Below are positions 3,748-32,492 of a DNA stretch of 64,000 bases, piece by piece. The notes beneath the pieces were generated by a model. The model did not search any database. It was given only the letters and a program-made list of their open reading frames with translations, and had not been told where the DNA came from. Numbering within the stretch: position 1 is the stretch's first letter; each line of letters opens with the position of its first letter. This stretch comes from Anaerolineae bacterium. GTDB taxonomy: Bacteria; Chloroflexota; Anaerolineae; UBA1429. The stretch spans positions 11,764 through 75,763 of the forward strand of contig JAXGON010000012.1 of the NCBI GenBank assembly GCA_040767425.1, in the 5' to 3' direction. Position numbers and translations under genes: made by a program.

Positions 3748-6246
3748 CTATGCCGGGGCGATCTCACGCCGCGTGTTTCCGTCGTGTCCCACGATCTCCA
3801 GGGCCCAATACGGCGTCCAGAGCAGACCAAAGGCCAGGAGGTCGATGTCTGAGCGTCGCGCGCTTTGAGTTCGCTGGACGATCTGGGTCGGCACCTCATC
3901 CCACCTGCGCCGCTCGGTCTCCAGCTCGCGGTCGCGCTCGGCTACCAGTTCCTCGCGGTCAGCACGGAGCCGCTCCAACGCGTCTTCGCGAGCGTCCATG
4001 GCCTGACGGGCCTTGGCGGTCATGCGGCGCTTTGTCTCGGCTTGCGAGAGACCGCGGCTGCGCTTGTGGCCCAGTAGCAGTCCGACGATGGATTCGCCTG
4101 CCGACAAGACCTCCTGGCGCTTGCGGCTCTCCCATTCAACTTCGGCTTGGCGTAGGCTCGCCTCCTCTTTGGCGATCTTGTCATCTAGCTTGTCGATGGC
4201 CTGCGCGTGCTTTTTTTCGAGCGCCTGCAGGGCAGCGCGCGACCGCTGCAACGCCTCAGCGCGACACCGCTCCGTAAAGGCGAGCTCTGACTCTCCCGGA
4301 TAGGATGTGAGCCCCAACGCCTCGTTATGCCACTGCTCCAGGCCGATGTCGTGATAGACATAGTCCTGAAACGCGTCACGGAGGCGGGTATAGGGCGGCG
4401 AGTCGTTCATCCCGTCAGGCAGCCGCTCATAGTAGGCTCGGCCGGTAGGCTCGGTCTCTAGGTCGTCCAGGCCCTCTACGATCTCGGCAAAGGCGTCCCA
4501 CTGGACGGTGCGGAACGCCTCTGGAAGCGGCAGACGGCAGGCTACCTGGCGCTCCTCGAGGGCGTTGGAGCTGGAATCCACAAAGCGCACCCGCGCCCAC
4601 CCGAGCAACTGGGGACGGTAGATGAGCGCCGCGTCTACGAGTTCGCCGCCGAGCTTGGCTGCCGCCCGCTCTCGGGGCACACTCAGCGCCGCATAGTACT
4701 GCATCACCCGCGAGTTCACCGCGGGTGGCGTCGACAGGAACCCGGCGGAGGTGAGGGCTGACTCGCTGACCAACGAGCTGGCTTTGGCTGCGGCCGCCGT
4801 GCGTCGTGGCGTCTCTGCTGGCCGGCGATCCTTATAGGGGCGCATCAGGTCGGCGACTTGGGTGCGGGTCATGGGCCCCCGGAGGTACGACATGGCCCAC
4901 CGGGTGCGGTAGAGCTGGGGTCCATCCCCATGGACGTTGTGTAGCACAAACACGCGTGATCCCAGCGACGAGATCATGCGGTCCATGTAGCGGCGATCCA
5001 GCAGGGTTCCCGACTGGGAGACAACCCCCTCCATGCCGTCCAGCAGGCGAGCTTTGTCTCGGTCGGTCTGCAGCTTGCCCACGAACCAGGTTCCTGCGTT
5101 AGAGAGCCCCTTATAGTCCAGGTCCATCGGGTTCTGGGTGGCCAATACGACGCCCAGGCCAAAGGCGCGGGCCTGCTTGAACAGAGTGAGCAGGGGCGTC
5201 TTGCTGGGTGGGTTGGCGGTGGGTGGGAAATAGCCAAAAACCTCGTCGAAATAGAGCAGGGCGCGCAGCGAGGTGGTGCCAGGCTGCTTACGCATCCAGG
5301 ATACGACCTGTTCCAGCAGGAGCGTGACAAAGAACATGCGCTCGGCATCGCTGAGGTGGGCGATGTAGCAGATCGAGACGCGCGGCTTGCCCGATGACGT
5401 CCAGAGTAGCCGACCGACGTCGAGGGGATCGCCCTCGCGCCAGGCGGCAAAGCTGGGCGCCGCCACGAGAGCGTTGAGCTGCATGGCAAGGCTCATGCGA
5501 TCACGGCTGGGGTAGAATGTCTCCAGCTCGAAAACGCCCAGGCGCTCGATGGGAGGGTTCTGCACGTCGACGATCAAGCGGCCCAGGTCCACATCCTCGC
5601 CGTTGCGCCAGGCGCGCTCTAGCAGGTTGGAGAGCAAGATGTGCTCACGGCTCTGCACGGGATCGGCGTCGATGCCGATGAGCCCGAGCAAGGCCGATAC
5701 GGTGCTAGAGATCGCCTCGCGCAACGACTCGGCGTCGTCATCCCAGCTCAAATCAGGCGCGTCAAAGCTCTGAAGCACGCTCAGGGGCAGGCCCGACTCG
5801 CTGCCTGGGGTATAGATGGTGAACTCGGCGGCCTCTTTCAGGCGACGGATGCGGTCGCCGTCCTGATCCCACTGCCCGAGCCCATCGGACCAGGTCTGCG
5901 CCGTTTGCTGGGCGTACTCGGCAATGGACTGACCCTTGCGGCGGGCGTCGTCGACGTTGATCCACGGCTCGAAATCGGAAGGGCGTAGCTCGGGGAACGT
6001 CAGGAGCAGGTTGGTCATGTCCCCTTTGGGGTCGATAATGATGGAGGGGATGCCGTCCAGCGCCGCCTCTTCCAGCAGCGTGATGCAGAGGCCCGTCTTG
6101 CCGCTGCCCGTCATTCCGACGCAGACGGCATGGGTGGTGAGGTCGCGGGCATCGTACATAATGGGGTCATCGACCTGATCCTGGCCCGAGTTGGGATCGT
6201 AGGCGCGGCCCAGGTAAAAGGCTCCCAGTCTCTCTTCCACCGCCAT
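3748..6246 (-). CDS. HerA/FtsK-superfamily NTPase (DUF853/YjgR-like) with ~300-aa C-terminal coiled-coil extension
   Basis: Walker A GMTGSGKTG followed by IIIDPKGDMTN (compare HerA/YjgR motifs); Walker B LLYFDEVF; ATQNPMDLD; charged heptad-like repeats in the C-terminal third. Confidence 0.6.
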   Translation of the reverse strand: MAVEERLGAFYLGRAYDPNSGQDQVDDPIMYDARDLTTHAVCVGMTGSGKTGLCITLLEEAALDGIPSIIIDPKGDMTNLLLTFPELRPSDFEPWINVDDARRKGQSIAEYAQQTAQTWSDGLGQWDQDGDRIRRLKEAAEFTIYTPGSESGLPLSVLQSFDAPDLSWDDDAESLREAISSTVSALLGLIGIDADPVQSREHILLSNLLERAWRNGEDVDLGRLIVDVQNPPIERLGVFELETFYPSRDRMSLAMQLNALVAAPSFAAWREGDPLDVGRLLWTSSGKPRVSICYIAHLSDAERMFFVTLLLEQVVSWMRKQPGTTSLRALLYFDEVFGYFPPTANPPSKTPLLTLFKQARAFGLGVVLATQNPMDLDYKGLSNAGTWFVGKLQTDRDKARLLDGMEGVVSQSGTLLDRRYMDRMISSLGSRVFVLHNVHGDGPQLYRTRWAMSYLRGPMTRTQVADLMRPYKDRRPAETPRRTAAAAKASSLVSESALTSAGFLSTPPAVNSRVMQYYAALSVPRERAAAKLGGELVDAALIYRPQLLGWARVRFVDSSSNALEERQVACRLPLPEAFRTVQWDAFAEIVEGLDDLETEPTGRAYYERLPDGMNDSPPYTRLRDAFQDYVYHDIGLEQWHNEALGLTSYPGESELAFTERCRAEALQRSRAALQALEKKHAQAIDKLDDKIAKEEASLRQAEVEWESRKRQEVLSAGESIVGLLLGHKRSRGLSQAETKRRMTAKARQAMDAREDALERLRADREELVAERDRELETERRRWDEVPTQIVQRTQSARRSDIDLLAFGLLWTPYWALEIVGHDGNTRREIAPA

Positions 6247-6895: not shown

Positions 6896-7237
6896 ATGAG
6901 CGATCAGGTCAAGCATGTGACGGATGCCAGCTTTCAGCAGGATGTACTGGAAGCGGATACCCCGGTTCTGGTGGACTTTTGGGCTCCCTGGTGCGGTCCC
7001 TGTCGCATGATCGCACCCATCGTCGAGCAACTAGCTGAAGAGTATGACGGCCGTCTAGCGGTTGTCAAGATGAACACCGACGAGAACATGGAGACGCCCA
7101 CGGGGCTGGGCATTCGTGGCATCCCCACGCTGATCCTGTTCGCCGATGGGGAAGAGGTGGAGCGGATCGTGGGGGTCACGCCCAAGCCGACGCTCAAGCG
7201 CAAGATCGACGCCATCCTCGAGGCTGAGATGGCGTGA
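6896..7237 (+). CDS. trxA: thioredoxin
   Basis: 113 aa with canonical WCGPC active site and GIRGIPTL cis-Pro region; AAAGGAG RBS upstream of the ATG at 6896. Confidence 0.9.
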   Translation: MSDQVKHVTDASFQQDVLEADTPVLVDFWAPWCGPCRMIAPIVEQLAEEYDGRLAVVKMNTDENMETPTGLGIRGIPTLILFADGEEVERIVGVTPKPTLKRKIDAILEAEMA

Positions 7238-7641
7238 GACAGCTCCTGGCGGAGAACTGGTTGGCGCTGCTCGTCTTGGGCGCGCTGGGTGCGGCCTACT
7301 TGTTGTTTCGCACCAGCCCGTCTGACCTGGCTTCGCTGGAAGAGGTGGATCAGATCATTGGAGCGGGCCGCCCCGTCGTGATCCAGGTCTATACCAACAC
7401 TTGAACGGCTTGCTTCCTAGCCAAGCCTGTCGTCGACGGGATCGAGCGATCGTTGGGAGAGCGGGGTACCGTGCTGAGATTCTCCGCTACTGGAACGGTG
7501 GGGAGGGCTCTGGCAGCGAGGCTGGGCGTGCGCGCCGTTCCCACCTTGGTGGTGTATGACGCGCAGGGTGACGAACTGCTCCGCCAGGTTGGATCCTTGA
7601 ATCAGGCCGAGGTGATAGCAGCGCTAGGTATTGATGACTAG
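7234..7641 (+). CDS. membrane-anchored thioredoxin-like protein with in-frame TGA (7402-7404) at the CxxC nucleophile position; candidate selenoprotein (UxxC), or else a disrupted gene
   Basis: One continuous frame from GTG 7234: N-terminal TM helix, then VVIQVYTNT-[TGA]-TAC-FLAKPVVDGIE aligning to Trx [24 protein letters not shown], then RAVPTLVVYD...GSLNQAEV matching Trx GIPTLLLF...GALSKGQL. Hairpin GGCTTG-N9-CAAGCC begins 3 nt after the TGA. Confidence 0.45.
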
Positions 7642-7669: not shown

Positions 7670-7858
7670 ATGCCCATCTATGAATACGAATGTGTCGAGT
7701 GTGGGACGCGCTTTGACAAGTTTGTGCGCAGCGCCACGCGCCCCGTGGAGGTGGCTTGCCCCACCTGCAAGAGCGAGAACTGCCGCAAGGTGGTTTCGGC
7801 CTTTGCGTCAACGGGTGTCCAATCCAGCGGTGCCAACTGCGCCCCATCTGGTGGTTGA
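7670..7858 (+). CDS. FmdB-family zinc-ribbon protein
   Basis: MPIYEYECVECG...CPTC N-terminal signature typical of the FmdB putative regulatory family. Confidence 0.7.
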   Translation: MPIYEYECVECGTRFDKFVRSATRPVEVACPTCKSENCRKVVSAFASTGVQSSGANCAPSGG

Positions 7859-7904: not shown

Positions 7905-8180
7905 GTGGGAAGGGCCATGACGACGCTAGAAAGCGCCGCGCGAGACGATCTGGTCCTGCGCCTGCGCCGCATCGAGGGCCAGACCAAGGGGATCCAGCGC
8001 ATGCTCCAGGAAGGACGGAGTTGCGCCGAGATCCTTGATCAACTCGCCTCCGTGCGCGCGGCTACACGCAGCGCCAGCATCGCGCTCTTGCGGCACTATG
8101 CGGCTACCTGCGTCGAATCGCCCGAAGCAGAGGTGGACTTGAGCGGAATCCTCGACCTCGTGTTTCGGGCCACCGACTAG
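7905..8180 (+). CDS. CsoR/RcnR/FrmR-family metal-sensing transcriptional repressor
   Basis: RLRRIEGQ.KGIQRM....C.EIL.Q...V..A......LL.HY..TC aligns with B. subtilis CsoR including the Cys...His...Cys ligand positions. Confidence 0.75.
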   Translation: MGRAMTTLESAARDDLVLRLRRIEGQTKGIQRMLQEGRSCAEILDQLASVRAATRSASIALLRHYAATCVESPEAEVDLSGILDLVFRATD

Positions 8181-22187: not shown

Positions 22188-23432
22188 TCAGGGGTTCCAT
22201 TCACGTAACGCTGGCGCCTGACGTATGCGGTCCTCGGGCCAGCCGAGCAGGTGGCACTTTTCCCACATATAGTAGCAATAGTGGTCCCAGCTTACCTCGG
22301 CGGGGCAGCGGTGGTCCACATGAGGGATGAACCCCCCTTCGACGACGGCTGGCTCTAGCCGCTTGAGCTCGGCCAAGATCGCCTCGCGCCCCTCGTGGAG
22401 GGCGAACTTGTTGAACCCTCCCATGATCAGCAGGTCGCGCCCATAGCGTTGGCGCAGAGCGACGGGGTCATTGCCCGCGTTGACCTCCAACGGGAACATG
22501 CAGTTCAAGCCCACGTCCAGCCAGAGGGGGACCAGCGCGTTGATGTTGCCATCGCAGTCGGTATAGATCACGTCGATGCCGTGCTGTCGGAGCATGCGCA
22601 TGACGGGGCGCATGTGCGGCATGATGCGATCACGGAAAAAGCGCGGGCTGAGGAGCGGGCCGCTGTTAAAGGCAATGTCCTCCCAACCAGCCGCGACGTC
22701 AATCTGGCAGCGCTCCAGCGTCGGCGGCAGGAGCGTCAGCAACATCTGGGCGAGATGCGCAACCATCTCTTCCACAAGGTCGGGGTCGTCCACCGACAGG
22801 TAGGCCAGGCTCTCGAACCCGATCCAATCGCGGATCCAGCCGATGAACGAGCCGAATCCGACCACGACGGGCAGATCGGCGGCGCGGCTATCGCGCAACA
22901 TGCGGTCGAGCTCCGCCTCGGTCAGGGCGCGGGCGGGGTGCTGAGGATCGAGGAACTCGTCGCGAAAGGCCTCCCAGGTGGCCCGATCGCGAATCGGAAA
23001 CTCGAGAAAGTGAGGAATGGTGCGGGTGCCCTCGGTTACCTCTTGCACCAGCACGCCCAGCCCATCGCGATAGACGATCCTGCCCTCCTGGCGGGAGACG
23101 ATTTGGGTCTCACGGCGCGGGTAGGCCCCGATGCGGGCCCCCACATGAGTGAACTGCTCTACGCCAAAGTACGTCTCTACAGCCCGATCCGGAATGGCGC
23201 CATCCTCCCGCCGGAGTGATGCCGGCAGGTGTCCCTGGGCCATCCAGTCCTCTTTGAGTTCATCCCAGTAGCCGAACTCATAGTTGGGGATGCAATCTAC
23301 CTGCTGATAGTGCATAAAGCGGTTGTACCGCTCGCGGGTGGAGAGCGCGCCGCTGAACGGAGCCGTGCCTACGCGCAGATCAGTCATCTGGTCCTCCTCA
23401 ATGGGGCTGGCTAGCCGCCAAGCTCGATGCAT
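22188..23432 (-). CDS. uroporphyrinogen decarboxylase (URO-D) family protein, paralog A (no HxCG zinc motif)
   Basis: VVGFGSFIGWIRDWIGFESLAY aligns with the URO-D GFxGxPxTLAxY region; the C-terminal region has TDCDGN where MtaA-type enzymes have HxCG. Confidence 0.5.
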   Translation of the reverse strand: MHRAWRLASPIEEDQMTDLRVGTAPFSGALSTRERYNRFMHYQQVDCIPNYEFGYWDELKEDWMAQGHLPASLRREDGAIPDRAVETYFGVEQFTHVGARIGAYPRRETQIVSRQEGRIVYRDGLGVLVQEVTEGTRTIPHFLEFPIRDRATWEAFRDEFLDPQHPARALTEAELDRMLRDSRAADLPVVVGFGSFIGWIRDWIGFESLAYLSVDDPDLVEEMVAHLAQMLLTLLPPTLERCQIDVAAGWEDIAFNSGPLLSPRFFRDRIMPHMRPVMRMLRQHGIDVIYTDCDGNINALVPLWLDVGLNCMFPLEVNAGNDPVALRQRYGRDLLIMGGFNKFALHEGREAILAELKRLEPAVVEGGFIPHVDHRCPAEVSWDHYCYYMWEKCHLLGWPEDRIRQAPALREWNP

Positions 23433-24565
23433 CGCTGGCGATAGTACCGATAGTCGTCCAGCGGCACCTCGGCGGGGACGCCGTGGTCACAGGTAGGGAT
23501 ATACCCGCCTCGCTGTCGCATGGTGGGCAGGATACGCTCCAGGTGCGCATCGATGGCCGCTCGCCCCTGGGCCAACACGCGCTTGTCGATGCCGCCAAAG
23601 ATGGCCAGCCCAGGGTAGCGCCGTCCAATCTCGACGACATCACATCCAGCGGCCACCTCAAAGGGGCTCATGGCGTCCATGCCGATCTCTTGGTAGATGG
23701 GGATCACGGGCAGGGCGTTGCCATCGGTGTCGATCTGGACATACAGGTGCCGGGTAGGATCGAGTTGGCGGTGTCGGATGTTGTCGATCAACTGCTGATA
23801 GTAGGGCAACAGAAAGGTACGCATCATGCGCGGCGAGATCAAGGCGCCGCCGTTGTAGCAGATATCCTCCGCCAAGAAGAGCTCGTCCAGCGTCACGTGC
23901 TCTTGGTGCTTGGCGATGACGGCGTCAGCCAGTGACAGCCAGGCCTCCATGCAGGTGTGGATGAGTTCGGGCTGGTCGTGAAAGGCATAGAGCAGCCGCT
24001 CAGGTCCGATCAGGCTGCGCAGGTACATGTAACCACCGATGACCCGCTGCGAGATCATCAGGCCGCGGCGGGCGGCCTCGCGGGCGGCGGCCATCTGGGC
24101 CTCCAGCTCGGCATAGCGCGCTGGCGTGGTGGGGTCCATACGCCAGACGACGTCGCGCTCCCACGTGGCCTGATCCTGCACGGGGTGGGCGACATACTCG
24201 GGCATAAAGCCATCGCGTCGCCCCTTGAAATAGAGCACGTGTCGGCCCGCCTGATCCTGCTCGAGCTCATAGTCGCCCCGATCCTCGATGACCTTGGTCT
24301 CAAAGGCGGGCTCAAACGCGGCCTCGCACCATCCTAGCCCCCCCAAGGCGTGAAAGCCGGGCGGATCGTACATGAACTGCTGGGCCAGCGGTTGCTCCAG
24401 CGAGAGGCCCTGGGTCTCCCACGCCTGGAGCGAGTAGTAGCCAAACTCGCGGCGAATCAGGCGATCGGTGGGACGGATGGCATAGGTGTCGCGCAAGCGC
24501 CGCGCGTGTTCGTCCATCTGGTCGCGCGGGGGCAGGGTGAGTACGCTTTCGGACGGATCATGCAT
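23411..24565 (-). CDS. uroporphyrinogen decarboxylase (URO-D) family protein, paralog B (no HxCG zinc motif)
   Basis: Same fold signatures as the paralog at 22188 (VIGGYMYLRSLIGPERLLYAF; IDTDGN); 22-nt overlap with the downstream paralog. Confidence 0.5.
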   Translation of the reverse strand: MHDPSESVLTLPPRDQMDEHARRLRDTYAIRPTDRLIRREFGYYSLQAWETQGLSLEQPLAQQFMYDPPGFHALGGLGWCEAAFEPAFETKVIEDRGDYELEQDQAGRHVLYFKGRRDGFMPEYVAHPVQDQATWERDVVWRMDPTTPARYAELEAQMAAAREAARRGLMISQRVIGGYMYLRSLIGPERLLYAFHDQPELIHTCMEAWLSLADAVIAKHQEHVTLDELFLAEDICYNGGALISPRMMRTFLLPYYQQLIDNIRHRQLDPTRHLYVQIDTDGNALPVIPIYQEIGMDAMSPFEVAAGCDVVEIGRRYPGLAIFGGIDKRVLAQGRAAIDAHLERILPTMRQRGGYIPTCDHGVPAEVPLDDYRYYRQRCIELGG

Positions 24566-31397: not shown

Positions 31398-32492
31398 CTA
31401 GGGTCGCCAGCGCCGCCCTTCGTCGAGCATGATCAAATAGCTCTCCAGCGGGATATAGTTGGCGACGCTGTTGCCCGTGCCCAGGCAGTAGCCTCCGCCA
31501 GGCATACAGGCCTCGAGGGTCTCGCGCACGCGGGAGCGGATGGCCGACTCATCGGCGCGGCAGAGAAAGTCGACGTCGATGCCGCCCAGGGCCGAGAGGC
31601 GGTCTCCATAGAGCCGCTTGTGCTCGATCACCGTGATGATCGTATCCTCGAACGAGTGCTGGGCGTCGATGCGCACATCCTCGATGAGATCCTCCATGAT
31701 CTCGCGCAGGTTGCCGCACGAGTGTAGCAGGTAGGGCCGCCCCGCCGCGTGAGACATTCCCGCCATCAGCTTGTGGCCTGGTAGAACGAATTCGCGGAGG
31801 TCATCTGGGCCGATGAGCGTGGCCGAGCGAAAGCCCATGTCGTCGCTGCCCCAGACGAGCTTGACGCGATCAAACTGCAAGATGCGCTCCAGCGCCTGAC
31901 GGAACATCTCGGTAATGCGATCGGCGATGGCTCGGACCAGGTCGCGCTGATCGAACAGCGCATAGCAGAGCGTCTCATAGCCCATCAGCCAGGTGAGGTA
32001 CTCGGCAAAGTGGCCAAAGCCACCACCGCCGATGATGCACATATCATCGGGTAGGTTGTCCTGATACCACTCGAGCATCCGCGTATGAGCATCGGTCATC
32101 TGGGGCCAGGGGTAGGCCTCGAACTCTTCCCAGGACGTGATGGGGCCCCGCCCCTCCGACATGAACTGGCGTCCGCCCGTGCGTTCCAGGTCGGCCGTGT
32201 CGGCGGCGGAGCCATAGTTGAACGTCATCGTCAGCCCTTCGACGCCCGCTCGCACATGATCGTATCCCAGGAACCGCTGGATGATGACCTCGGATTTGAC
32301 GTCAAAGAAAGGATCGTCAGCATCGAGCCCATCCCAGAGATGGAACCGCCGAGCCACGGCCTGGCGGACCTCTTGGTCGAGGAACAACTCGATATGGTGC
32401 ACCCTTTGCGGCGTGCCCTGGCGGAGGATGCAGCAGTCACGCAGCTCCTCCCAGTCGGGTGTGATCTGGTCGCGCAATAGCCGTTCGGCCAT
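31398..32492 (-). CDS. uroporphyrinogen decarboxylase (URO-D) family protein, paralog C, retaining the MtaA-like HxCG zinc motif
   Basis: IGGGGFGHFAEYLTWLMGYE (URO-D GFxGxP.TLA.Y region); VWGSDDMG; LLHSCGN. Confidence 0.55.
   Translation of the reverse strand: MAERLLRDQITPDWEELRDCCILRQGTPQRVHHIELFLDQEVRQAVARRFHLWDGLDADDPFFDVKSEVIIQRFLGYDHVRAGVEGLTMTFNYGSAADTADLERTGGRQFMSEGRGPITSWEEFEAYPWPQMTDAHTRMLEWYQDNLPDDMCIIGGGGFGHFAEYLTWLMGYETLCYALFDQRDLVRAIADRITEMFRQALERILQFDRVKLVWGSDDMGFRSATLIGPDDLREFVLPGHKLMAGMSHAAGRPYLLHSCGNLREIMEDLIEDVRIDAQHSFEDTIITVIEHKRLYGDRLSALGGIDVDFLCRADESAIRSRVRETLEACMPGGGYCLGTGNSVANYIPLESYLIMLDEGRRWRP

What the first reader, a model, noticed from the sequence alone, without database searches (positions are those of the whole stretch)
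7234..7641. Candidate selenocysteine-containing thioredoxin-like protein (UxxC) directly downstream of trxA
One reading frame from GTG 7234 to the stop at 7641 encodes an N-terminal membrane anchor plus a complete thioredoxin fold. It contains a single in-frame TGA at 7402-7404. The TGA falls exactly where the nucleophilic Cys of the CxxC motif should be: VVIQVYTNT-U-TA-C-FLAKPVVDGIE aligns to [24 protein letters not shown]. The downstream half (RAVPTLVVYD...GSLNQAEV) matches the cis-Pro/beta3-alpha3 region of thioredoxin. A 6-bp-stem hairpin (GGCTTG-CTTCCTAGC-CAAGCC) starts 3 nt after the TGA, where bacterial SECIS elements sit. A random nonsense mutation landing on the catalytic Cys codon is much less likely than Sec recoding.
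Basis: partly seen in the sequence, partly recalled or inferred. Interest (0 to 1): 0.78.

Follow-up and report, generated by a model that had tools for sequence, protein, structure and literature searches.

The report
Membrane-anchored thioredoxin-like selenoprotein gene
The in-frame TGA is almost certainly a selenocysteine codon in a membrane-anchored thioredoxin-like protein that is widespread in Chloroflexota and split in two by public annotation; the RNA signal is a different hairpin from the one first proposed, and the find adds to a well-known class of proteins.

Summary
ORF 7234-7641 has one in-frame TGA (7402-7404) at the nucleophile position of a thioredoxin CxxC motif. It is not an error or a pseudogene: two independent assemblies are identical, and all 122 relatives read at DNA level keep TGA there, down to about 32% identity. 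Both halves evolve as coding sequence in one frame, and full-length Cys (CxxC) homologues exist. It is a 15-nt hairpin, CCYGUC-GUN-GACGGG, at 7426-7440, 21 nt after the UGA. It shows synonymous-site constraint, 99.7% pairing in 103 unique sequences, and compensatory changes at two pairs (G-C to A-U, C-G to U-A). It fits the published bacterial SECIS model. Most Cys forms examined have lost it. The protein is an N-terminal membrane helix plus a classical thioredoxin fold, probably facing outward. Sec machinery could not be checked in this genome; cultured Anaerolineae have it according to the literature. Trx-fold UxxC selenoproteins are well known, so this is a new, unannotated member of a known kind.

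The parts
6896..7237 (+). trxA, a canonical cytoplasmic thioredoxin (WCGPC). Its TGA stop overlaps the GTG start of the next gene (GTGA).
   Evidence: Pfam Thioredoxin E = 6.8e-33. The overlap can be read directly. This neighbour is kept in 13/36 genome loci.
7234..7641 (+). Full gene of the thioredoxin-like selenoprotein: 135 codons, Sec at codon 57.
   Evidence: Public annotation splits it into a 56-aa 'hypothetical protein' and a C-terminal 'thioredoxin family protein' fragment.
7258..7308 (+). N-terminal hydrophobic helix (residues 9-25, WLALLVLGALGAAYLLF), a predicted membrane anchor.
   Evidence: Hydropathy and flank charges in 36 orthologues: N flank +0.6, C flank -2.4. The Cys-form homologue model has helix 2-28.
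7402..7404 (+). In-frame UGA, the predicted selenocysteine codon (U of the U-T-A-C motif).
   Evidence: TGA in all 122 sequences read at DNA level. It aligns with the first Cys of CxxC in 27 full-length homologues.
7411..7413 (+). TGC, the resolving Cys of the UxxC motif.
   Evidence: Invariant Cys60.
7426..7440 (+). Conserved hairpin CCUGUC-GUC-GACGGG, the predicted SECIS core (SelB-binding stem-loop). It has a 6-bp stem and a G-U-N loop, and starts 21 nt after the UGA. It encodes P-V-V-D-G.
   Evidence: Synonymous-site constraint. It is the only RNAalifold consensus helix. Pairing is 99.7%, with compensatory changes at 2 pairs. It fits the published bacterial SECIS criteria.
7408..7428 (+). 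It is present here but is not a conserved feature.
   Evidence: z = +0.53 against shuffles. 66.7% paired across orthologues. Pair probability about 0 in a 75-nt context.
7540..7542 (+). CCC, the cis-proline of the thioredoxin fold (P103, in VPT).
   Evidence: Invariant in 39 Sec and Cys forms.
7670..7858 (+). FmdB-family zinc-ribbon gene (Cys form). A clade-specific downstream neighbour.
   Evidence: Pfam Zn_ribbon_8 E = 3.7e-15. Synteny.
7917..8180 (+). CsoR-like metal-sensitive repressor gene. A clade-specific downstream neighbour.
   Evidence: Pfam Trns_repr_metal E = 1.4e-20. Synteny.

Best explanation
Gene 7234-7641 encodes a single 135-residue protein: an N-terminal membrane-anchor helix followed by a classical thioredoxin fold. 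The attacking residue of its redox motif (U-x-x-C) is selenocysteine, encoded by UGA 7402-7404.

[quoted passage not shown] The hairpin has a 6-bp G+C-rich stem and an apical C-GUN-G. SelB delivers Sec to the A site in competition with release factor 2. The hairpin lies inside the coding sequence and fixes the peptide K-P-(V/I)-V-D-(G/R).

Inferred protein function: a membrane-tethered thiol-disulfide (selenol-thiol) oxidoreductase, with the Trx domain probably on the outer face of the cytoplasmic membrane. In this clade it is co-transcribed and translationally coupled with cytoplasmic trxA.

Shown here: conservation of the TGA, the coding status of both halves, the Trx fold, and the conservation and covariation of the hairpin.

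Inferred only: SelB binding, actual Se incorporation, topology and substrates.
For: 1. The TGA is real. Two independent assemblies are 100% identical over the gene.
2. TGA sits at the same codon in 36/36 sequences (the window, L001 and 34 GTDB-genome loci), in 80/80 metagenome loci, and in 6/6 further divergent members, at 32-90% protein identity.
3. Both halves are under purifying selection in the same frame. Synonymous to nonsynonymous codon differences are 144:117 upstream and 198:154 downstream, against 67:552 and 38:565 in the shifted frames.
4. TGA is an ordinary stop in this genome: trxA and 10 long ORFs end in it.
5. Full-length homologues of the same architecture carry Cys at the site, giving 27 CxxC among 150 representatives. 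111 representatives are gene calls that start right after the site.
6. Hairpin, synonymous sites: Gly69 is GGG in 36/36, against 12-35% GGG in other conserved Gly columns. The third base of the loop varies freely.
7. Hairpin, pairing: it is the only consensus helix. Over 103 unique sequences it is 99.7% paired, against 30-62% for slid controls. Pair 4-12 is G-C 55 / A-U 44 / G-U 4 / A-C 0. Pair 3-13 is C-G 97 / U-G 4 / U-A 2. 46 cells are changed on both sides, against 17 +/- 9 in shuffles (0 of 500 shuffles reach this).
8. The G-C to A-U switch recurred independently: clear cases are L045/L051 and L082/L088, and crude parsimony gives about 17 events.
9. Fit to the published bacterial SECIS model (PMC13188914): 3-nt loop (or C-GUN-G), 6-bp stem, G then U at the start of the loop, 27 nt from the UGA to the loop, and -8.2 kcal/mol for the commonest hairpin variants.
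10. Divergent TGA members whose peptide differs have other hairpins with a G-first loop at 23-31 nt.
11. Three of the four Cys forms examined at DNA level have lost or degraded the hairpin, even where the peptide is still P-V-V-D.
12. The Trx fold is supported by Pfam, by the AF2 model of Cys homologue P0006 (pLDDT 95.5), and by best structural matches to classical thioredoxins.
13. The Sec trait (SelD, SelA, SelB) is reported in Anaerolinea thermophila, Caldilinea aerophila and other Chloroflexi (PMC5029168 Table S1).
Against: - No selA, selB, selD or tRNA-Sec was found in the 64-kb window or in the 842 kb of related loci. So little of each genome is held that this says nothing either way. 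The Sec machinery of this particular organism remains unverified.
- There is no experimental evidence of Se incorporation.
- The window's own 15-nt hairpin has a U-G pair and folds at only -6.0 kcal/mol, weaker than the -7.5 model threshold. Its predicted occupancy depends on context, ranging from 0.28 to 0.8.
- Four of the six stem pairs are largely fixed by the encoded amino acids, so independent covariation is available at only two pairs.
- One Cys form (L117) keeps a perfect hairpin. This fits a fossil SECIS, but also shows the hairpin can persist without a UGA.
- No Rfam family matches.
- The loci read at DNA level were retrieved with peptide patterns overlapping the hairpin, which biases them towards intact hairpins. 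The four divergent members found through the exhaustive search only partly offset this.
Confidence: 0.9

Rival explanations
1. The TGA is a genuine stop, and the locus makes two products: a 56-residue membrane peptide and a separately initiated C-terminal fragment. On this reading the conserved hairpin serves termination-reinitiation, pausing or mRNA stability rather than Sec insertion.
For: Gene callers annotate it this way. The N-terminal 56-aa ORF is itself well conserved. One Cys form keeps the hairpin without a UGA.
Against: - The codon after the TGA varies freely (ACG, AGC, CUG, AUG, GGC, GCG, CCG and others), and no conserved start codon follows it.
- In the window the next start is TTG 7453. 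The fragment from there would lack strand beta-1, the whole redox motif and half of the active-site helix.
- The reading frame is preserved across the TGA in all 122 sequences.
- Cys homologues are single ORFs with C aligned exactly to the TGA.
- The hairpin fits the SECIS model in spacing and loop.
Confidence: 0.03
2. The UGA is read through or recoded as a standard amino acid (Cys, Trp or Gly) by a suppressor or near-cognate tRNA or a variant genetic code, not as selenocysteine.
For: Two database gene calls show W at the site. Sec machinery was not verified for this genome.
Against: - TGA terminates trxA and at least 10 other long ORFs in the window, so there is no genome-wide reassignment.
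- One of the 'W' calls was checked at DNA level. It is a TGA with the same hairpin, and the locus does not translate to the database protein under table 11, so that W is an artefact of the gene caller.
- A site-specific downstream hairpin that meets the SECIS consensus is the hallmark of SelB-dependent decoding.
- The position is the nucleophile of a redox motif, where Sec/Cys pairs are the rule (PMC1794560).
Confidence: 0.05
3. The TGA is a sequencing or assembly error or a recent nonsense mutation, making this a pseudogene.
For: None beyond the bare presence of a stop codon.
Against: - The sequence is identical in two independent assemblies from different samples.
- TGA is conserved in 122/122 relatives across deep divergence.
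- Both sides of the TGA are under purifying selection.
Confidence: 0.01

Closest known systems
Thioredoxin (Trx) selenoproteins with a UxxC motif (Pfam PF00085; for example Treponema denticola and Geobacter; listed in PMC1794560 and PMC13188914)
   Same: Thioredoxin fold. Sec replaces the N-terminal (attacking) Cys of CxxC. The SECIS lies within the coding sequence just downstream. Cys-containing homologues exist. Best structural matches are classical thioredoxins.
   Different: - It has an N-terminal membrane anchor.
- The motif context is NT-U-x-x-C-L-x-A-K-P rather than W-C-G-P-C.
- It scores far below NCBI's thioredoxin equivalog cut-off (33 against 96.8 bits).
- It is confined, as far as sampled, to Chloroflexota.
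- Apparent Sec forms outnumber Cys forms about 4:1 among cluster representatives.
'Thiol:disulfide interchange protein' selenoprotein family (Pfam PF13098, UxxC, representative WP_011366075.1; PMC13188914 inventory)
   Same: The best Pfam hit is the same model (Thioredoxin_2, PF13098). Same UxxC motif. Probably an extracytoplasmic thiol-disulfide oxidoreductase.
   Different: I could not obtain the representative sequence, so direct homology at family level is untested. The structural neighbours of the model here are classical thioredoxins, not DsbE/TlpA-type proteins.
Membrane-anchored extracytoplasmic thioredoxin-like reductases (ResA, CcmG/DsbE, TlpA; plant HCF164 and cyanobacterial TxlA, the last two from my own knowledge)
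   Same: An N-terminal signal-anchor helix followed by a Trx domain predicted to face outward. A possible electron supply from cytoplasmic TrxA through a CcdA/DsbD-type transporter.
   Different: - It lacks the extra N-terminal hairpin and central insert of TlpA/ResA-type proteins. The NCBIfam ResA hit is only 16.6 against a cut-off of 170 bits, and only for a Cys homologue.
- It uses Sec instead of Cys.
- No CcdA/DsbD gene is in the window.
Bacterial SECIS elements (bSECISearch consensus; E. coli fdhF and Moorella fdhA SECIS, from established knowledge)
   Same: A stem-loop inside the coding sequence downstream of the UGA. A small apical loop with G then U. Spacing within 16-37 nt. The apical C-GUN-G matches the published N1-G-[G/U]-N-N2 pattern.
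   Different: Unusually compact (15 nt) and unusually conserved in sequence across a phylum-level family. There is no conserved lower stem and no bulged U as in E. coli fdhF. There is no Rfam match.

Membership tests
Bacterial selenoprotein gene (SelB/SECIS-dependent UGA recoding) | In-frame UGA aligned with a catalytic Cys in homologues (Sec/Cys pair) | tested here: met
   27 full-length homologues carry CxxC with the first C aligned to the TGA.
Bacterial selenoprotein gene (SelB/SECIS-dependent UGA recoding) | UGA conserved among orthologues, with coding conservation on both sides | tested here: met
   122/122 sequences have TGA.
Bacterial selenoprotein gene (SelB/SECIS-dependent UGA recoding) | bSECIS model (i): apical loop of 3-9 nt and upper stem of 4-16 bp | tested here: met
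   6-bp stem and 3-nt loop, or 5 bp and 5 nt. Criteria taken from PMC13188914.
Bacterial selenoprotein gene (SelB/SECIS-dependent UGA recoding) | bSECIS model (ii): G in the first two loop positions, usually followed by G or U | tested here: met
   The loop is G-U-N in all 103 unique sequences (columns 34-35 are invariant G and T).
Bacterial selenoprotein gene (SelB/SECIS-dependent UGA recoding) | bSECIS model (iii): 16-37 nt between the UGA and the apical loop | tested here: met
   21-nt spacer plus 6-nt 5' arm gives 27 nt, with no indels in 117 sequences.
Bacterial selenoprotein gene (SelB/SECIS-dependent UGA recoding) | bSECIS model (iv): minimum free energy of -7.5 kcal/mol or lower | tested here: inconclusive
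   The 15-mer alone gives -8.2 in most orthologues but -6.0 in the window, where CCU gives a U-G pair. With 75 nt of context the window folds at -25.9 and the hairpin is included.
Bacterial selenoprotein gene (SelB/SECIS-dependent UGA recoding) | selA, selB, selC (tRNA-Sec) and selD present in the same genome | not testable with these tools
   None in the window's 46 genes or in 842 kb of loci. Only fragments of each genome are available. The lineage-level Sec trait is reported for Anaerolinea and Caldilinea.
Bacterial selenoprotein gene (SelB/SECIS-dependent UGA recoding) | Selenium demonstrably incorporated (75Se labelling or mass spectrometry) | not testable with these tools
   Experimental.
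Thioredoxin-fold superfamily (Pfam PF00085 / PF13098) | Profile match above the gathering score | tested here: met
   Thioredoxin_2 29.3 bits (cut-off 27) and Thioredoxin 25.9 bits (cut-off 23.5), with U replaced by C.
Thioredoxin-fold superfamily (Pfam PF00085 / PF13098) | Beta-alpha-beta-alpha-beta-beta-alpha fold, with the redox motif at the N-terminus of the first long helix, and a cis-Pro loop | tested here: met
   AF2 model of Cys homologue P0006, pLDDT 95.5. Foldseek finds classical thioredoxins with target-normalised TM-score about 0.8. P103 is invariant.
Canonical thioredoxin TrxA (NCBIfam TIGR01068 equivalog) | Score above the equivalog cut-off; WCGPC motif; soluble protein | tested here: not met
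   33.2 bits against a cut-off of 96.8. The motif is NTUTAC. It has a membrane anchor.
TlpA/ResA/CcmG-type membrane-anchored disulfide reductases | Profile match and TlpA-like structural insertions | tested here: not met
   There is no hit for the window protein, and only 16.6 against 170 bits for one Cys homologue. The listed (best 50) structural matches are all classical thioredoxins or thioredoxin domains; no TlpA/ResA-type protein is among them.
Curated NCBIfam selenoprotein families (SaoT, HUIPC-motif Trx-like, TsoB and others) | Match to one of the dedicated models | tested here: not met
   No such model is hit by the window protein. TsoB is hit only weakly by Cys homologues, at 20-25 against 805 bits.
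'Thiol:disulfide interchange protein' selenoprotein family (PF13098, WP_011366075.1) | Family-level sequence similarity to the representative | not tested
   The representative sequence is not obtainable with these tools. Only the shared Pfam model and the UxxC motif are established.

The most novel reading that the evidence does not exclude
This may be an uncatalogued, Chloroflexota-wide selenoprotein family in which Sec forms dominate over Cys forms. On this reading the Sec-containing thioredoxin domain is displayed outside the cytoplasmic membrane. The entire SelB recognition element would be a 15-nt hairpin whose sequence dictates the protein's K-P-(V/I)-V-D-(G/R) motif. That would make it a very clean natural case of an RNA structure and a peptide co-evolving, and would define the SECIS/SelB recognition code of the phylum.
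Probability: 0.35. Interest if true: 0.55.

Novelty: new member of a known kind. Interest (0 to 1): 0.4.

Why it matters
**Annotation.** Hundreds of Anaerolineae/Chloroflexota genomes and metagenome contigs carry this gene split into a 'hypothetical protein' and a truncated 'thioredoxin family protein'. It should be one selenoprotein, and no NCBIfam model covers it.

**Biology.**
- It adds a membrane-tethered, probably outward-facing Sec-thioredoxin to the redox toolkit of a phylum abundant in anaerobic digesters and sediments.
- It gives a compact SECIS supported by covariation, which could be used to find other selenoproteins in these genomes.
- It shows how an RNA element embedded in coding sequence constrains the encoded peptide, and how that constraint relaxes after Sec-to-Cys conversion.

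It does not change the general picture. UxxC thioredoxin-fold selenoproteins are the commonest kind of bacterial selenoprotein.

Tried and rejected
- **Rfam.** No hit at gathering thresholds for the whole window, or at E <= 10 for 7350-7500.
Rejected: not better than shuffles, 66.7% paired across orthologues, pair probability about 0 in a 75-nt context.
- **Scan for other TGA-interrupted ORFs.** Too noisy at 64% G+C to be useful. The apparent hits were adjacent genes sharing a frame.
- **Strict hairpin motif elsewhere.** Searching 597 kb for other selenoprotein genes with the same SECIS found only this family.
- **tRNA-Sec and selA/B/D.** None in the window or loci. This says nothing either way given how little of each genome is held.
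- **Structure prediction of the window protein with U replaced by C.** I modelled natural Cys homologue P0006 instead.
- **First metagenome scan with a very diverse alignment.** Failed for lack of a conserved stretch. I repeated it with a tighter alignment.
- **Functional inference from gene neighbourhood.** Rejected as a family-wide argument. The trxA/Zn-ribbon/CsoR context holds in only 13/36 loci. Other clades sit next to endonuclease IV/MurI-like genes (by eye) or an EF-G-like gene.
- **BSepDB supplementary tables.** Not held, so I could not check whether the family is already listed.
- **Alternative genetic code.** Rejected, because TGA terminates many genes here.
Full report
**Observation.** The window holds trxA (6896-7237, WCGPC, Pfam Thioredoxin E = 6.8e-33). 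Its TGA stop overlaps the GTG start (7234) of a 135-codon frame that ends at 7641. This frame has one internal stop, TGA 7402-7404, in the context VYTNT-U-TA-C-FLAKPVVDGIE. With U read as C, the product passes Pfam's gathering scores for Thioredoxin_2 and Thioredoxin. The region folds no better than dinucleotide shuffles, with z = +0.53.

**Is the TGA real and conserved?** The only word-index protein hit (P0001) was a gene call starting just after the CxxC position. Its contig (L001) carries the same ORF at about 64% identity, with TGA at the same codon.

- A scan of one genome per GTDB species returned 35 loci, all Chloroflexota and mostly Anaerolineae/Anaerolineales MAGs. All 34 readable ones have TGA at the U-x-x-C position, at 32-90% identity. 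L012 is masked by N over the site.
- A metagenome scan with a more degenerate pattern found 448 relatives, and all 80 retained have TGA.
- Two independent assemblies, a Logan run and an anaerobic-digester metagenome, are 100% identical to the window over the gene. This excludes a sequencing error.
- Synonymous to nonsynonymous codon differences are 144:117 upstream and 198:154 downstream of the TGA, against 67:552 and 38:565 in the two shifted frames. Both halves are therefore translated in the same frame.
- TGA is a normal stop in this genome: trxA and 10 other long ORFs end in it. This excludes a variant genetic code.

**Sec/Cys pairs.** I ran an exhaustive HMMER search with the post-TGA part of the protein. 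Of the 150 listed representatives:

- 111 are short gene calls that begin within a few residues after the site.
- 27 are full-length proteins with CxxC aligned to UxxC. About 15 of these share the membrane-anchor architecture, for example P0006 (NTCTSCLLARPAIDGLA).
- Two have 'W', one has S and one has G at the site.

All short calls I checked at DNA level have an upstream in-frame TGA: P0001, P0007, P0073, P0112 and P0097. One 'W' call, P0136, is a TGA that was translated under another genetic code.

**The RNA element.** In 36 sequences the peptide K-P-V-V-D-G-I-E is invariant. Its synonymous sites are frozen exactly where a hairpin CCCGUC-GUN-GACGGG would pair:

- Gly69 is GGG in 36/36, against 12-35% GGG in other conserved Gly columns.
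- Pro65 is CCC 33 / CCU 3, Val66 is GUC 34, and Asp68 is GAC 34 / GAU 2.
- The third base of the loop varies freely: G 20, C 13, A 2, U 1.

RNAalifold returns this helix as the only consensus structure.

The metagenome set adds true compensatory changes.

- Where Val (GUC) is replaced by Ile (AUC), the synonymous third base of the Asp codon is always U. Pair 4-12 is G-C 55, A-U 44, G-U 4 and A-C 0.
- Where Gly (GGG) is replaced by Arg (AGG), the Pro codon is CCU. Pair 3-13 is C-G 97, U-G 4 and U-A 2.

On 103 unique sequences the helix is 99.7% paired, against 30-62% when the 3' partners are slid. It has 46 cells changed on both sides, against 17 +/- 9 in shuffles (0 of 500 reach this). The G-C to A-U switch recurs between near-identical neighbours (L045/L051 and L082/L088). 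Crude parsimony on a tree built from only 75 flanking nt suggests about 17 events.

The element fits the published bacterial SECIS model (PMC13188914):

- a 3-nt loop, or C-GUN-G, which is exactly the N1-G-[G/U]-N-N2 pattern;
- a 6-bp stem;
- G then U at the start of the loop;
- 27 nt from the UGA to the loop;
- -8.2 kcal/mol in the commonest hairpin variants.

The window's own copy has a U-G pair and reaches only -6.0.

Divergent TGA members with a different peptide have different hairpins with G-first loops at 23-31 nt. An example is L122, with an 8-bp stem and loop GGU.

Four Cys forms were read at DNA level. L124 has no hairpin although its peptide is still P-V-V-D. L118 and L125 retain degraded versions. 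L117 retains a perfect hairpin carrying both compensatory variants. L117 looks like the 'remnant SECIS' described for recent Sec-to-Cys conversions (PMC1794560).

**The protein.** Residues 9-25 are a hydrophobic helix. Across 36 orthologues the N flank is on average +0.6 and the C flank -2.4. By the positive-inside rule this suggests N-in/C-out, with the Trx domain outside the cytoplasm. This topology is an inference.

I therefore modelled the natural Cys homologue P0006, which gave pLDDT 95.5. It has helix 2-28 and then a canonical thioredoxin fold, with the CxxC at the N-terminus of helix 61-76. Foldseek's best PDB matches are classical thioredoxins (S. aureus, E. coli, Thermus; target-normalised TM-score about 0.8), not TlpA/ResA-type proteins.

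**Context.** The arrangement trxA-X-FmdB-like Zn ribbon-CsoR-like repressor is kept in 13 of 36 genome loci, and also in L120 and L126. Other clades have unrelated neighbours. The trxA link is therefore clade-specific. It may reflect electron supply from cytoplasmic Trx, but no CcdA/DsbD gene lies in the window.

**Sec machinery.** No tRNA-Sec, selA, selB or selD is present in the window's 46 likely genes or in the 842 kb of related loci. So little of each genome is held that this says nothing either way. Peng et al. 2016 (PMC5029168, Table S1) list SelD, SelA and SelB in Anaerolinea thermophila, Caldilinea aerophila, Sphaerobacter, Thermomicrobium and Chloroflexus aurantiacus, and count four selenoproteins in A. 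thermophila. BSepDB reports very selenoprotein-rich Chloroflexota of the class Dehalococcoidia. The trait is therefore established in the phylum but not verified for this organism.

**Comparison with what is known.** Thioredoxin-fold UxxC selenoproteins are long known. They include Trx, the 'thiol:disulfide interchange protein', DsbA-like and Prx-like families.

- This family matches no dedicated NCBIfam selenoprotein model, and scores far below the thioredoxin equivalog cut-off.
- Public records annotate it as two fragments: a 56-aa 'hypothetical protein', and a 75-aa 'thioredoxin family protein [Anaerolineae bacterium]', for example MGD2103975.1.
- I could not check whether homology-based catalogues such as BSepDB already include it under 'thioredoxin'.

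**Verdict.** The SECIS assignment is corrected to 7426-7440. Confidence in Sec recoding is about 0.9. The remaining doubt comes from the unverified machinery and the lack of experiment. This is a new, unannotated member of a well-known kind, made more interesting by a very clean, covariation-supported mini-SECIS and by the predominance of Sec forms. Interest is 0.4.

Noticed in passing
window 7670-7858 (+): The gene just downstream is an FmdB-family zinc ribbon (Zn_ribbon_8) with CxxC...CxxC. The 2026 selenoproteome review lists this family (TIGR02605) as having UxxU selenoprotein forms elsewhere. Here it is the Cys form.
   Followed up: partly
L117:651-1139 (protein P0074): A Cys (TGC) form of the family keeps a perfect copy of the hairpin, carrying both compensatory variants (CCU AUC GUG GAU AGG). 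It looks like a fossil SECIS from a recent Sec-to-Cys conversion. The review says such conversions are rarely documented outside FdhA and SelD.
   Followed up: partly
L119:702-1067 (protein P0136); also P0039: Database gene calls show Trp at the Sec position. For P0136 the DNA has TGA plus the hairpin, and the locus does not translate to the stored protein under table 11. Some pipeline therefore called these contigs with a TGA=Trp code. P0039 was not checked.
   Followed up: partly
(150 representatives of the exhaustive search): Apparent Sec forms (111 calls truncated at the site) outnumber Cys forms (27) about 4:1 within this family. The reverse is usual for selenoprotein families.
   Followed up: partly
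L001:166-645: In this orthologue the stop at the end of the gene is missing. The ORF runs on for about 25 codons into the start of the Zn-ribbon gene, in another frame, giving a different C-terminus.
   Followed up: no
L012:10001-10551: The stored genome record is masked by a run of N exactly over the N-terminal half and the TGA of this gene. Only the hairpin and the downstream part are readable.
   Followed up: no
window 22191-23432, 23414-24565, 31401-32492 (all -): Three paralogous URO-D-like (uroporphyrinogen decarboxylase family) genes lie within 10 kb, with weak Pfam scores. They sit among polysaccharide-synthesis genes: two Bac_transf, several glycosyltransferases, a Wzy_C/WecG fusion and two Phosphodiest genes.
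   Followed up: no
window 3748-6246 (-): An 832-aa protein with only a weak HerA/DUF87 ATPase match lies two genes upstream, beyond the HAD-like hydrolase gene. It is conserved with the trxA cluster in the closest relatives (L002-L005).
   Followed up: no
L120:809-1228 (protein P0007, NCBI GCA_040364295.1): This member has the same trxA/Zn-ribbon/CsoR neighbourhood and a TGA, but its peptide is K-P-A-V-D-G-L-A, which breaks the standard hairpin. A longer alternative stem-loop is predicted instead (loop about 31 nt after the UGA). The SECIS may have been remodelled within the clade.
   Followed up: partly
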